Positions 1,847-8,095 of a DNA stretch of 64,000 nucleotides are shown here, in pieces. The stretch is taken from assembly GCF_009914755.1 (NCBI RefSeq), contig NC_060938.1. One strand, 5' to 3'. How positions within the stretch are numbered: position 1 is the first letter of the stretch; each line of letters begins with the position of its first letter. Below the pieces are notes generated by a model. That model was not told the DNA's origin. It saw only the letters and a list, made by a program, of their open reading frames with translations, and made no database searches. Source of the stretch: the human T2T-CHM13v2.0 reference genome, Homo sapiens. Position numbers and translations under genes: made by a program.

Positions 1847-4600
1847 GCTGGGACCCAGGAGCGAATATAGCCCAGCTTTATTCATGGAGGGCAGAAGAGT
1901 GGGGAAAGTGAAGGGCCAGGGGGCAGGGCTACGGACCTAGGTGGCTCACCCCACACAGGGATTACTATCTGTCCAGAGGTGGGGTCCAGGGTAAGAGCCT
2001 GAAATCCAACCCTGTGTCTTTGGAAAACTGTGGGGAATTCTAACTCTCATCTTGGCACTGGGATAAGAACCAGACAGTGGAAGGTGTGCTTGATCTGCAT
2101 GCTGTGAGGACCAGAGTCCTGGACTAGATGGGCTATGGACATGCAAGTATTCCATTTGAGCCAGACGGTAACAGCCACTCCTTCTCCCTCCAGGACAACA
2201 CTTCCTTTCTCATCCTGAGGCCAAGTGCTAGACTAAAGCCCCTAAAAGCCAGGCAATCACTTTGTGCCGCAGTTTTGAGTGTCATCTTGCAGAAAGGATT
2301 TAGGGAAAGGTGCAGTGACACACTTCCTCTCCCTTCTCTGGGGGAGGTAGGACAGGCCAAGGACTCCTACTTCCTGGCCTATAAAATGTCTGGTCCAGGC
2401 TGGATAGGTTGACTCCACAGGCAGACTTAATAAGGGAAGGAGGAACGATTGCTCCTTGTGATTCAGATGAAAGGGCTCATGTGGAGGGCGGGGTAGGGTG
2501 GGAAGTGGGCTGACCTGCACAGCACCCCCTCCTACTTTCAGAGTTGTCTCCATTTCCCCATTTGTGGCCTGGGTACCCCTGGCAACTCTGAGTAGCTAGC
2601 ATTCCCTGGGTGAGCCTAGCCAGCAGGTGCACTCCCCAAAATGGTTCGACTGAGAGGCAGTTTATGGTTATCCTGGCCAGCAAATGGGGAGATAGTGTCC
2701 AGGCTCTGCACCCTGTTTCCCAGTTCAGACATTTCGAATGCCTCTCATGTCCTCCCCAGAGCAAGACAATGTGGCCAGCATCTTGACCCCCAACCAGGAG
2801 TTGGAGGAACTGCAATCTGGTGGAGACATACCCCGAGCCAGCCTCTGTTCACCAACTGCTTACAAGGATGAGGACACTGGACCCTGCTACGAGTTCTATG
2901 CCAACTCCGTAGTCCTGGGATGGCTCCATACAGCTTGGTAAGACCCAGGCCCCACAGTGAACTCCTGAAGGTAGGATAACATCTGCCTGTGGGCTACCAC
3001 CACCCTTCATGTAGCTCTGGGACTGCCCTCCAGGTCCATTAGCTGTCCTCCTGGTTGCAGACGCGCTGGCTAGCAAGGGGTCTTGGCATTTCAGTTATGT
3101 ATGTGCTGTCCCAGCCAAGAAATAGTGCCACGTCCACCTCGAGAGGAAACCCACACCCAGCCACACTCCCAAGATGATCTGGAGAATTCTGGGGCCAAAA
3201 TCGGCAAGGCCCCAGTGCACTTCAGCTGGGTCATAGGAGTCATGGTAATGGATTGGCGCTCATGGTTCCCTAAGTCTGGGGATCTAGGCAGGCGAGAACT
3301 CTTTGCTCCAGGGGAGTTTTTGGGAGGTACCTCTGAAGAAGGGGGCAAGGGGTGGGACTCACACTGGAGACTGCAACCCCTCCCTTACCACCCTGCTCCC
3401 CAGATTTGCTGTATGCTCAATATCTGGGGCATCATTCTCTACCTGCAGCTGCCTTGGATCGCTGCTCAGGCAGGCACAGGTATGAGCTCAGAGCTCTCCT
3501 GGGCAGTAGGAAGGGATGTGCATGTATGAATAAATTCCCATCCTCACCCCAGGGCTCACATGGCTCATCATCCTGTTCTTGGCCTCAGTCATACTGTCAC
3601 TGGATTGTCTATCTCAGCCATCTCCAGCAACGGCAAAATCAAGGCTGGTGAGTCTTTAGTGACTCCCGCTCCTCCCTTCATGTTTCCCCATCCCTCATAT
3701 CTGTTAATGAATTGTATGGTGTTCTTCGATGATCACATTTGGTCATTTCCTCACTCCCCCAACCCCTGCCACACAAACATTTTCATTTCCCCTTTTGGTA
3801 CTGGTGGTACCTAGATAGCCCTACTGCTTTGGGATGGGGTTTTCTTCCCATGAAGAAATGTGTATCCTCAATCTCATTTCTAGGCTCCTGTATGATTCAA
3901 CGTGCTTCCGAAAATAGGACTGACATGGGTGTGCAGAATGGGAGCCGCCTGGGCGCAAAGTGCCAGTATGGCTGGGATTTCAGCAGTTGTCGAGAGCAAG
4001 GGTCCTGCCTCTGTGGGCTCTCTAATCACTATGAGGTGAGTGAACCAGAGCGGAAGTGTAGAGAGAGAAACCTTGCCCATTGCCTGGCATAGCATAGATG
4101 TTTAAGTTGATTAATTTGGGGCAAAACCTTCAAAGATGCAGATAAATTTTAATAAGTCTGGGAAAACTAGGTGAAAATACGGGTGGAATGCATTACTTTG
4201 GAAATGCATTGATTTTTGCCTCTGTCTGCCCTTTTCCTCAGACCATGAACATGGTGTCTGCCTTTAGCCCTCTGATGTCTGCTGGAATCTTGAGAGCCAT
4301 TCTGTTCTGTACCCTTTCCTGCTTTGTTTCAGCCCCTAATATCTTCCAGGCTAGTTGAGATCTTAGCAAGAGGCTTGCAAGAGAAAGGAAAGAATGTTAG
4401 TAGACACGGTCATCCCAAGTGTATAATTTTTGAGGAGGGGCAAAAGACGGCTCAGTTCTCAGCAACTGGGAGTTAGAAGGTAACTTTGGGAGATGGAGAT
4501 GACTGTGGCTGGCTAGCGTTTAAAGAGATAATCCAAGCCCACATAGCAACATTCAAAGTCTGCCTGTAAATCAAGGGAAAGTATGGGGAAGGTGTCACTC

Positions 4601-4885
4601 TTTTTTTTTTTTTTGAGACACAGTCTCACTTTGTCACCCAGGCTGGAGTGCAATGGCATGGTCTCGGCTCACTGCAACCTCCGCCTCCCAGGTTCAAGTG
4701 ATTCTCTCGCCTCAGCCTCCCAAGTACAGGCACATGCCACCACATCCAGTTAATTTTTATATTTTTAGTAGAGATGGGGTTTCACTATGTTGGCCAGGTT
4801 GTTCTCGAACTCCTGACCTTGTGATTCACCCGCCTTAGCCTTCCAAAGTGCTGGGATTACAGGCGTGAGCCCCCAGGCCTGGCCC
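4601..4885 (-). mobile_element. AluS inside pseudogene intron
   Basis: Antisense Alu with poly(T) at 4601; direct repeat GGTGTCACTC on both sides (~4591-4600, ~4886-4895). Confidence 0.9.
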
Positions 4886-6189: not shown

Positions 6190-6450
6190 AGATTGAAAAC
6201 GGTGGCCTATGGACGGAATGTTGCCTGGAAATGAGTTTTTTGATTGCACAGCATTTACAATTTTTAAAATAAACTACCAACGTTTAAGATCCAGGCATCT
6301 GCTAATCCTGGGCCTCCAACCCACATGACACAGTTAGCTGGGGCTGAGTAGCTCCTGTCCCATGGGACAAGGCAGGTGCTCTCCAGTTTGCCACAGTTCC
6401 CACTTGGTCCACTTTATTCTTTAATACTACATGACTGGTTCTTGCAAACT
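6190..6450. mobile_element. MER102-like hAT/Charlie DNA transposon fragment
   Basis: GGCTGAGTAGCTCC...GTGCTCTCCAGTTTGCCACAGTTCCCAC resembles the recalled MER102 consensus. Confidence 0.55.
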
Positions 6451-8095
6451 TTTGGCTTTTTTGGGAAAGGCCATGGCAAGAACCATGAACCTCTGCAGGG
6501 TTATCTGCTCAGACACAGAAGGAAACTAGCTTCCTGAAATCTGGGCGGGGTAGTGGAAAAAAAGGAAGCCTTCTTGTCACCTCTCATCCAACATACCATA
6601 TCCCCTTCTTTCCTCATTGCTTCTCCTTTCAGGTCTCATGTTTGAACCAACTGAAGTCCAATGTGCTGGTCTTGGGATATAAGCAAAATTGGGAGAAAGG
6701 GCCTGTATCTGCCATGGAGTACTACATAGGCATTCTAGTGCGAATGTGAGATAGAGAAGGGTAAGATGGACATAGAAATGGTCAGGAACTAGAAAGAAGA
6801 GGAAATATAATCGTGGTGAAGCCCTTGTTCCCAACAGCTGCCCAGCAGTGCCTGTGTCCCCAGGAAAGAGACCCCCACCCCTTCATCTCTTCCTCCTATA
6901 TCTCTTTTTCTCTCCTCTCCATAAAGTGATGACTTTGACTACAACTATGGCATAGGCCTCATAAGGATGCCAGGAGGGTTAAGCCCGGCTACTCAACACC
7001 AAGCTCAAGGTGAGTGAAAAGAGGTGGGCCTAAGAGAAGGATGTGGTGTGGGAGGTATAGAAATTGGCTCTCAAAGACAGTCTGGGAGGCAAATGAACTC
7101 ATCTAGAGTTACCAAGACCTAAGACTGAATAGAATTGGGTACCAGGATGCGAGAGAAATGAATTTTGCTTGAGCTTTAGTTCTCCTGAAATTTTCAGGGT
7201 GGGGGAAAACTTTAAAGGTATCTTCTAAATTCAGGTGGGAGAAATTTGGATCAAAAGATACAACATAGCAGGGTAAGCTGGAGTGTGGTCAGGAAGGGCT
7301 ATGGCCCAATTCTAGAGAAGGGTTTCTGGCACTACCCCAATTCTAATAATATTACACATCTTATCAGTTAAATTTTGGGCATCCTTAGCAAAAAGATAAC
7401 ATTATTTTGTGTTATACCCCCACTTTTCCCAGTACACCCAGCATATTTGGATGTCATAGGGATGGATACTTAGCAGGCAGGAGACCAATTCTAAAACATG
7501 TCCTGTTTTTAGGAATAACAGAGTTGTAGAGCGGGTTAGAGAAGCAGACACCAAGGAAAATAAAAAGGAAATGCGGTTAGTCAATGCGGAGAGAAGCCAC
7601 ATGACGTTTCTCTAGGATAGCAATAATTCTCATAGGGGAGGAGAGGTATTATACTGAATTAGGAGCAACTGCTCAGCTGGAAAGGAGTTTGTCTCATTCT
7701 TTTCTTCTCTTTTCTCGGGCAGCATCCTTATTCCAGCAGCCTCAATGTTCCAATCCAAGCAAGGCCGGAGGGCAGTGGACGTGTACTGGCTCGGTGTTGA
7801 TGAAGGTAGGGACTCCATGGCTCCCCAGGAAGTCCCAAGTTCTCCAAGTTCCAGGGAGAATAGGAGAGGGAAGATAGTGACATATAAACCAGAAAGGACT
7901 AGAAAATGAACTCTGCATTTACCAAGTACCCAATACTCTCCTCCCACCTCAGAGGACAACTGTGGTGTTTAAAGGCCAACAGAAAAGCCCGTGTTGCTGG
8001 AGCAGCGCAAACAAGGAATTGAGTAGCAGATCAAAGTGGTAGGCAGGGAAGGGCAGAGTGGATCACAGAGGGTCTCACAGGCCTTTAAATAGACT

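What the first reader, a model, noticed from the sequence alone, without database searches (positions are those of the whole stretch)
2738..7805. Hidden fossil of a second Na+-Cl- cotransporter gene (NCC2/SLC12A10-like) between KLHL33 and OSGEP
Seen: about 13 AG/GT-bounded segments whose translations follow SLC12A3/NCC in order ([30 protein letters not shown], the Cys-rich extracellular loop, GKNHEP, APTIANF, VNWGSS, FDYNYG, DVYWL). Several exon lengths equal the recalled NCC lengths (76, 108, 100, 83 nt). Inactivating lesions: stops at 2939, 5806 and 6146, and frameshifts in e4 and e14. Established: human SLC12A3 lies on another chromosome; a paralogue NCC2 (slc12a10) is known from fish ionocytes and, as I recall, is intact in some tetrapods. 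Inference: the introns, tiny intron sizes and wide divergence from NCC indicate an ancient paralogue lost in this lineage, not a retrocopy. This points to a lost mammalian epithelial NaCl-uptake route. It may already be reported as a pseudogene; I cannot check that.
Basis: partly seen in the sequence, partly recalled or inferred. Interest (0 to 1): 0.9.

Follow-up and report, generated by a model that had tools for sequence, protein, structure and literature searches.

The report
Dead human SLC12A10 salt-transporter gene
Human chromosome 14 carries the broken remains of a second sodium-chloride transporter gene, the counterpart of the horse's SLC12A10; about half its exons are gone and the rest carry stops and frameshifts, and the loss of this gene in most mammals is already published.

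Summary
Thirteen splice-bounded exons (2747-7805, +) follow SLC12A3/NCC exons 1-4, 10-15, 18, 19 and 21 in order (tblastx sum E 2.9e-68). The three stops and both frameshifts are where stated. There are also further frameshifts, a GC donor and a duplicated 59-nt piece of exon 12. The fossil is the orthologue of horse SLC12A10: identity 69% to horse, 65% platypus, 52% human NCC; sister to horse at 99/96; grouping with NCC rejected, AU p=6e-60. It is an intron-bearing unitary pseudogene, not a retrocopy or recent duplicate. Whether mammalian SLC12A10 is orthologous to fish NCC2 was unresolved in my trees and rests on the literature. It is not hidden: RefSeq lists 3404-4349 as an 'SLC12A3 pseudogene', and two papers citing Motoshima 2023 report slc12a10 pseudogenes in most mammals. 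Already known. What is added: a fuller lesion map, the parent gene's identity, and signs that the horse copy is itself eroding.

The parts
2747..2970 (+). Exon 1 (ATG 2747; N-terminal tail); first in-frame stop TAA 2939; 224 nt, frameshift near 2930
   Evidence: 33/60 identical to donkey P0276 from Met1; three-frame view; GT donor
3115..3244 (+). Exon 2, 130 nt, -2 frameshift near 3142
   Evidence: 31/44 identical to horse P0277
3404..3479 (+). Exon 3 (TM1, MLNIWG), 76 nt, frame intact
   Evidence: 83% to NCC exon 3; PDB NCC hit E 4e-7 for the 3200-3481 read; length equals NCC
3553..3647 (+). Exon 4 (TM2), 95 nt, -1 frameshift near 3592
3648..3883 (+). 236-nt interval where exons 5-9 (TM3-TM7) are missing
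   Evidence: horse exon 5-9 peptides score at shuffle level; no match in window plus 20 kb upstream with NCC exons
3884..4035 (+). Exon 10 (Cys-rich extracellular loop), 152 nt, same peptide length as horse and monotreme SLC12A10 (NCC 155 nt)
   Evidence: 40/51 to horse versus 40% to NCC
4242..4349 (+). Exon 11 (TM8), 108 nt; donor reads GC; S467F and S468C in NCC numbering
4597..4890 (.). Alu-like insertion in intron 11
   Evidence: 84-96% matches to the repeat at 9726-9987; many hits in the SLC12A3 locus; family name recalled
5112..5238 (+). Exon 12 (TM9), 127 nt, in-frame 3-nt insertion in a G run
5553..5651 (+). Exon 13 (TM10), 99 nt, one codon lost; S533A, F536L, Y540C
5783..5931 (+). Exon 14 (TM11-12), 149 nt; TAA 5806; net -7 nt, two frame changes near the 3' end
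6069..6168 (+). Exon 15 (VNWGSS), 100 nt; TAA 6146
6453..6511 (+). Duplicated 59-nt piece of exon 12, lying in the 464-nt interval where exons 16-17 are missing
   Evidence: 49-nt direct repeat at 90%, spacing 1306; alignment; exons 16-17 at shuffle level
6633..6737 (+). Exon 18 (C-terminal domain), 105 nt to the nearest GT (NCC 107), probable 2-nt loss or damaged donor
   Evidence: Pfam SLC12 PF03522 E 1.4e-6, above cut-off
6927..7009 (+). Exon 19, 83 nt, frame intact
   Evidence: 21/27 to horse versus 46% to NCC
7723..7805 (+). Exon 21 (DVYWL), last surviving exon; probable frameshift near 7745; exons 22-26 not found downstream to 11300

Best explanation
This is a dead, intron-containing copy (unitary pseudogene) of SLC12A10, the second Na+-Cl- cotransporter-type gene that still has a long reading frame in horse and monotremes; it cannot encode a transporter, and it likely lost function tens of millions of years ago and has since decayed in place. 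Shown: from ATG 2747 the frame stops after 64 codons; exons for TM3-TM7 and most of the C-terminal domain are absent; surviving exons carry two further stops, several frameshifts and changes at 41 of 165 otherwise invariant residues. Inferred: the ancestral protein was a 12-TM SLC12 carrier moving Na+ and Cl- together (horse, donkey, platypus and echidna keep the NCC-type His234); purifying selection ended, then point changes, small indels and three block deletions accumulated. One deletion (exons 16-17) was likely repaired with a templated 59-nt copy of nearby exon 12. About 0.09-0.12 neutral substitutions per site fit the erosion, which by recalled primate rates would be roughly 55-75 million years.
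For: Colinearity with SLC12A3; exon lengths and splice sites; 331/472 identical to equid SLC12A10; identity ranking horse 69%, platypus 65%, sturgeon 55%, NCC 52%, medaka slc12a10 46%, NKCC2 45%; trees; AU p=6e-60 against psi+NCC; 64 versus 4 diagnostic columns; DNA of 2700-4400 is single-copy apart from one 73% exon match to SLC12A3; horse protein finds no other SLC12A10-like locus among 49 matches; 12 missing exons at shuffle level; invariant-site erosion; simulation; literature.
Against: Orthology of mammalian SLC12A10 to fish slc12a10 was not resolved: neither alternative rejected, and the free tree was 7.6 log units better than the one joining them; diagnostic columns were 4 for, 8 and 7 against. 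Synteny in horse or other species was not tested. One search used a stricter first look, so absence of displaced exons is not proven. Only 2 nonsense codons in exons 3-21 is low for d=0.12 (P=0.10), so the age may be younger. One short platypus 'exon 25' peptide (8 aa) beat all 50 shuffles at 7942; the 22-aa horse peptide did not (6/50), so I treat it as chance. Transcription was not testable.
Confidence: 0.92

Rival explanations
1. A recent duplicate or retrocopy of SLC12A3, as the RefSeq name 'SLC12A3 pseudogene' suggests.
For: NCC is the closest human protein; RefSeq label supplied with the task.
Against: Introns are present at NCC positions; only 52% amino-acid identity to NCC against 69% to horse SLC12A10; AU p=6e-60; no intron similarity to SLC12A3 in blastn.
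Confidence: 0.01
2. The gene is orthologous to the horse and monotreme gene, but that lineage is a separate ancient NCC duplicate (the 'NCC3' of amphibians and squamates) rather than the orthologue of teleost NCC2.
For: Trees leave NCC, mammalian SLC12A10 and fish slc12a10 unresolved; mammalian copies keep H234, T352 and C472 like NCC, whereas medaka and tilapia have N, I and F; an older review treats NCC2 and NCC3 as separate clades (PMC4301019, passages).
Against: A later review reports synteny and phylogeny uniting them across bony vertebrates (PMC11381001, passages); the sturgeon protein also keeps H234 and C472, so those states look ancestral; my taxon set has no amphibian, reptile or coelacanth sequence.
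Confidence: 0.12
3. The locus retains a residual role, as a non-coding transcript or short peptide (64 aa from exon 1, or a hypothetical 199-codon Met-ORF across exons 4-14), next to the divergent KLHL33 promoter.
For: Most splice sites are still canonical; the exon 5-9 deletion is in phase (579 nt); a 199-codon Met-ORF exists in the hypothetical spliced sequence; a TATA-like word lies near 2381.
Against: Erosion at invariant residues fits neutral decay; the long ORF needs the GC donor and begins out of the ancestral frame; RefSeq gives no exons or transcript here.
Confidence: 0.05

Closest known systems
Equus caballus SLC12A10 (nr 'solute carrier family 12 member 10', P0272; longer model P0277) and monotreme counterparts (P0279, P0280)
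   Same: 69% and 62-65% identity over 425 columns; shared exon-10 length, RMPGGLS segment and start position; sister group in trees.
   Different: Human copy lacks 12 exons and has stops and frameshifts; horse, donkey, platypus and echidna have long ORF models. Rhino (329 aa) and pangolin (399 aa) models are fragmentary.
slc12a10 pseudogenes of mammals (Motoshima et al. 2023, Physiol Genomics 55:113; paper itself not held, seen only through PMC11145369 and PMC11381001 passages)
   Same: Same gene, same fate: pseudogene 'at the same chromosomal locus' in various mammalian genomes; deleted or pseudogenized in birds and most mammals.
   Different: I could not see whether the human lesions, deletions or date are itemised there; I recall that primates were covered but could not check.
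RefSeq LOC100422510, 'solute carrier family 12 member 3 pseudogene' (3404-4349)
   Same: Same place and strand; covers exons 3-11.
   Different: Spans 946 of about 5060 bases, gives no exons and names SLC12A3 as parent.
Human SLC12A3/NCC
   Same: Exon order, phases and several exon lengths; 52% identity.
   Different: Other chromosome (contig C16); introns 193-8801 nt versus 73-762 nt here; not the sister lineage.
Teleost Slc12a10/NCC2 (eel NCC-beta)
   Same: Same NCC-like clade (100/100); named orthologue in the literature.
   Different: Only 46-50% identity; has N/I/F at NCC 234/352/472, of which F is tied to thiazide resistance (PMC12365235), while mammalian copies have H/T/C.

Membership tests
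SLC12 Na+-dependent cation-chloride cotransporters (NCC/NKCC) | AA_permease TM domain followed by SLC12 C-terminal domain | tested here: met
   Exon 18 matches PF03522 above cut-off; exons 3, 11 match PF00324 and exon 21 PF03522 below cut-off; 5 of 10 window pieces gave an SLC12-type or permease hit or (exon 10) an unrelated weak hit, 5 gave none; PDB best hits are NCC
SLC12 Na+-dependent cation-chloride cotransporters (NCC/NKCC) | Complete 12-TM reading frame with ion-binding residues (functional member) | tested here: not met
   Stop after 64 codons; TM3-TM7 exons absent; S467F, S468C, S533A, Y540C
Mammalian SLC12A10 | Clusters with horse and monotreme SLC12A10 to the exclusion of NCC | tested here: met
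   100/100 clade, sister to horse 99/96, AU rejects psi+NCC; mixture-model quick tree agrees
Mammalian SLC12A10 | Same chromosomal neighbourhood as the intact horse/monotreme gene | not testable with these tools
   No other vertebrate genomes available; PMC11145369 states 'same chromosomal locus' without naming flanks; NCC2+KLHL33 search gave 0 papers
Vertebrate slc12a10/NCC2 (including teleosts) | Monophyly with teleost slc12a10 | tested here: inconclusive
   AU p=0.159 for mammal+fish, p=0.462 for mammal+NCC
Vertebrate slc12a10/NCC2 (including teleosts) | Thiazide-resistant Na+-Cl- cotransport | not testable with these tools
   Needs assay; pocket residue C472 is kept in the fossil, horse and monotremes, unlike teleost F
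Unitary pseudogene | Introns retained at ancestral positions | tested here: met
Unitary pseudogene | No intact copy of the same orthologue elsewhere in the genome | tested here: met
   one search used a stricter first look, so weak matches may be missed
Processed pseudogene / recent SLC12A3 duplicate | No introns, or high identity to and nesting within SLC12A3 | tested here: not met

The most novel reading that the evidence does not exclude
SLC12A10 has no working copy in any placental mammal: the 'intact' horse gene is an open but eroding relic (39 of 313 otherwise invariant residues changed, including N149H, G152S, P349S, G362E, W612R and R1009H, against 1-3% in fish controls), relaxation began near the placental root, and only monotremes keep a true transporter, one that would lack the NCC Thr60 kinase site and be thiazide-sensitive, unlike fish NCC2.
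Probability: 0.3. Interest if true: 0.4.

Novelty: already known. Interest (0 to 1): 0.17.

Why it matters
It is a clean example of a lost vertebrate salt transporter in the human genome, but the loss is published. The practical gain is annotation: RefSeq covers under a fifth of the fossil and names the wrong parent. It has no expected effect on human physiology; exon matches of 72-80% DNA identity to SLC12A3 are too low to confuse most assays. The side result that horse SLC12A10 has lost many invariant residues, and that mammalian copies keep the NCC thiazide pocket, gives a cheap test of whether any mammal still uses this carrier.

Tried and rejected
Motoshima 2023 could not be read (not held), so whether it itemises the human locus is open, as are its supplements. 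Searches for SLC12A10P, LOC100422510 and NCC2+KLHL33 each returned 0 papers; (klhl33, slc12a10, slc12a3, ncc3; at least two terms) listed 22 papers, none with both klhl33 and slc12a10. First protein search with window 3200-3481 found nothing. The search with a teleost protein returned 120 listed hits, all ray-finned fish. Human SLC12A2 was not obtained, so NKCC1 is represented only by an unnamed fragment and is absent. The careful mixture-model tree did not finish; the quick one is reported. Donkey was dropped; one search used 15 of 23 rows. The bacterial promoter scan is not meaningful for this genome and found nothing. The element at about 6190-6450 resembles a MER102-type DNA transposon from memory, but the genome search returned only itself, so this is untested. 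Remnants of exons 5-9, 16-17 and 22-26 were sought with NCC, horse and platypus peptides and rejected. Exon 20 is not counted as a human loss because the horse model P0277 also lacks it.
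Full report
Observation. I read 1-11500 and translated it in three frames. The window is human contig C14. I fetched the SLC12A3 locus, located its exons and rebuilt a 26-exon, 1021-aa NCC with AG/GT at every internal junction. 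With Alu-like repeats masked, tblastx gives one colinear chain between window 2861-7810 and SLC12A3, sum E 2.9e-68. Thirteen exons can be delimited, matching NCC exons 1-4, 10-15, 18, 19 and 21. Exons 3, 11, 15 and 19 have exactly the NCC lengths (76, 108, 100, 83 nt). Introns are 73-762 nt against 193-8801 nt in SLC12A3. The TAA codons at 2939, 5806 and 6146 and the frameshifts in exons 4 and 14 are confirmed.

A frameshift-aware alignment to horse and platypus peptides adds a -2 shift in exon 2, an in-frame codon gain in exon 12 and a codon loss in exon 13. Exon lengths and three-frame views add probable shifts in exons 1, 18 and 21, and the exon 11 donor reads GC. Twelve exons (5-9, 16-17, 22-26) have no remnant: all 12 horse peptides scored within the range of 50 shuffles (6 to 50 of 50 shuffles reached them), while five surviving exons used as controls were reached by 0 of 50. 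With platypus peptides, 10 of 12 were plainly at null level, exon 7 was reached by 1 of 50, and an 8-aa 'exon 25' piece by 0 of 50; the latter comes from an incomplete model and the horse peptide does not confirm it. Exons 5-9 hold N227 and H234 (TM3) and Y386 (TM7), named as ion or water-site residues in PMC11381001 (section 57 read). NCC exons with a counterpart total 1638 of 3066 nt. Exon 20 is also missing from the horse model, so I do not count it. In the gap left by exons 16-17 sits a 59-nt copy of exon 12 (6453-6511). It lacks the 3-nt insertion that exon 12 now has, and one CpG has decayed in opposite directions in the two copies, so the duplication predates those changes. A templated insertion at a deletion breakpoint is my inference.

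Identity. A search with NCC exon 14 returned one unnamed ORF, P0116, 32/43 identical to the fossil's exon 14, against 23 or fewer for the other top-scoring rows shown. Searching with it gave 11 proteins from horse, donkey, rhino, pangolin, platypus and echidna, one named 'solute carrier family 12 member 10 [Equus caballus]'. The fossil is 331/472 identical to the equid proteins. On 425 shared columns: horse 69%, platypus 65%, echidna 62%, sturgeon 55%, human NCC 52%, tilapia slc12a10 50%, medaka 46%, human NKCC2 45%. Where horse and both monotremes agree and differ from NCC, the fossil follows them at 64 of 79 columns and NCC at 4. In a 22-row mixture-model quick tree and a 15-row LG+G4 careful tree it nests in mammalian SLC12A10 (100 and 100/100), beside the laurasiatherian sequences, with monotremes outside, as the species tree predicts. 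Forcing it with human NCC costs 111 log units, AU p=6e-60. The horse protein finds 49 matches in the human genome: nine in this interval, the rest in SLC12A3, the two NKCC loci and three weak hits I take from recall to be KCC genes (stricter first look). DNA 2700-4400 is single-copy. So this is a unitary pseudogene of the gene that horse and monotremes retain.

Against the full NCC2 reading. The branching among NCC, mammalian SLC12A10 and fish slc12a10 is unresolved: AU p=0.159 for mammal+fish and p=0.462 for mammal+NCC; diagnostic columns 4, 8 and 7 for the three resolutions. My sample has one good NCC and no amphibian, reptile or coelacanth. Synteny could not be tested. The link to fish NCC2 therefore rests on print.

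Mechanism and age. From ATG 2747, which matches donkey Met1, the frame ends after 64 codons. A hypothetical transcript of the 13 exons has a 199-codon Met-ORF lacking TM1, TM3-7, TM11-12 and the C-terminal domain. The fossil differs at 41 of 165 columns invariant in NCC, two NKCC2 sequences, both monotremes and medaka, including S467F, S468C, S533A, F536L and Y540C; three of the 41 (V397M, V398I, S546 change) are shared with horse. A neutral-decay simulation on NCC codons reproduces about 38 such changes at d of 0.09-0.12 per site and never at 0.07 or less (0 of 60 runs); two stops in exons 3-21 has P 0.37 at d=0.09 and 0.10 at d=0.12. By recalled primate branch lengths that is roughly 55-75 million years; this is a rough inference with assumed kappa and CpG rates. 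That the ancestral protein carried Na+ and Cl- is inferred from the retained His234 (a Tyr in other CCCs; PMC11381001) and from eel NCC-beta assays (PMC10043231, passages). I saw no assay of a mammalian SLC12A10.

Prior knowledge. [quoted passage not shown] PMC11381001 (passages and one section) says it was deleted or pseudogenized in birds and most mammals, and excludes it from the active human CCCs. PMC13607439 (passages) lists 0 copies for human. All cite Motoshima 2023, which I could not open; its text and supplements may itemise the human locus. RefSeq already marks 3404-4349 as LOC100422510. Searches for that id, SLC12A10P and NCC2+KLHL33 gave no papers in the held library. PMC4301019 (passages) gives the older view of NCC2 and NCC3 as separate clades. 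PMC10094795 (passages) added nothing on mammals.

Side results. Horse P0277 differs at 39 of 313 invariant columns (12.5%), donkey 39/300, rhino 19/140, pangolin 49/146, against 8/240 for sturgeon and 4-9 of 305-315 for three teleosts. The invariant set was defined with monotreme and medaka sequences, which favours their relatives, so this is a lead, not a proof. Mammalian copies keep H234, T352 and C472 of the thiazide pocket, whereas medaka and tilapia have N, I and F; C472F confers resistance in human NCC (PMC12365235, passages). The T60 phospho-site column is D in the fossil and donkey and A in platypus.

Verdict. Real, correctly interpreted, already known. Interest 0.17.

Noticed in passing
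P0277, P0276 (horse, donkey SLC12A10): The 'intact' equid protein differs at 12.5-13% of otherwise invariant columns, including N149H, G152S, P349S, G362E, F536Y, W612R and R1009H in NCC numbering; it may be relaxed or non-transporting.
   Followed up: partly
P0277, P0279, P0280 and window 4242-4349: Mammalian SLC12A10 keeps H234, T352 and C472 of the NCC thiazide pocket, unlike teleost NCC2 (N, I, F), so it would be predicted thiazide-sensitive.
   Followed up: partly
window 2860-2890: The column of NCC's Thr60 kinase site is Asp in the fossil and donkey, Ala in platypus, Thr in medaka; mammalian SLC12A10 may have been regulated differently.
   Followed up: no
window 8094-8700: A young repeat, 95-97% identical to many copies genome-wide (40 of 2702 candidates scored), ending in a poly-A tail about 290 nt after exon 21; SVA-like by recall.
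   Followed up: partly
window 6190-6450: Old repeat-like stretch resembling a MER102-type DNA transposon (recall), apparently cut off where the exon-12 duplicate begins; genome DNA search found only itself.
   Followed up: partly
window 2381-2388: TATA-like word (CTATAAAA) about 365 nt upstream of ATG 2747; the gene is divergent from KLHL33, whose 5' end is at 1066.
   Followed up: no
P0270, P0271 (pangolin, rhino): Short, gapped protein models (399 and 329 aa) named as SLC12A3 or SLC12A3-like belong to the SLC12A10 clade and are probably pseudogene models.
   Followed up: partly
P0273, P0276, P0277, P0278, P0279: Several horse, donkey and platypus SLC12A10 proteins are labelled 'member 3' in UniRef or nr, so the mis-naming is widespread.
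   Followed up: no
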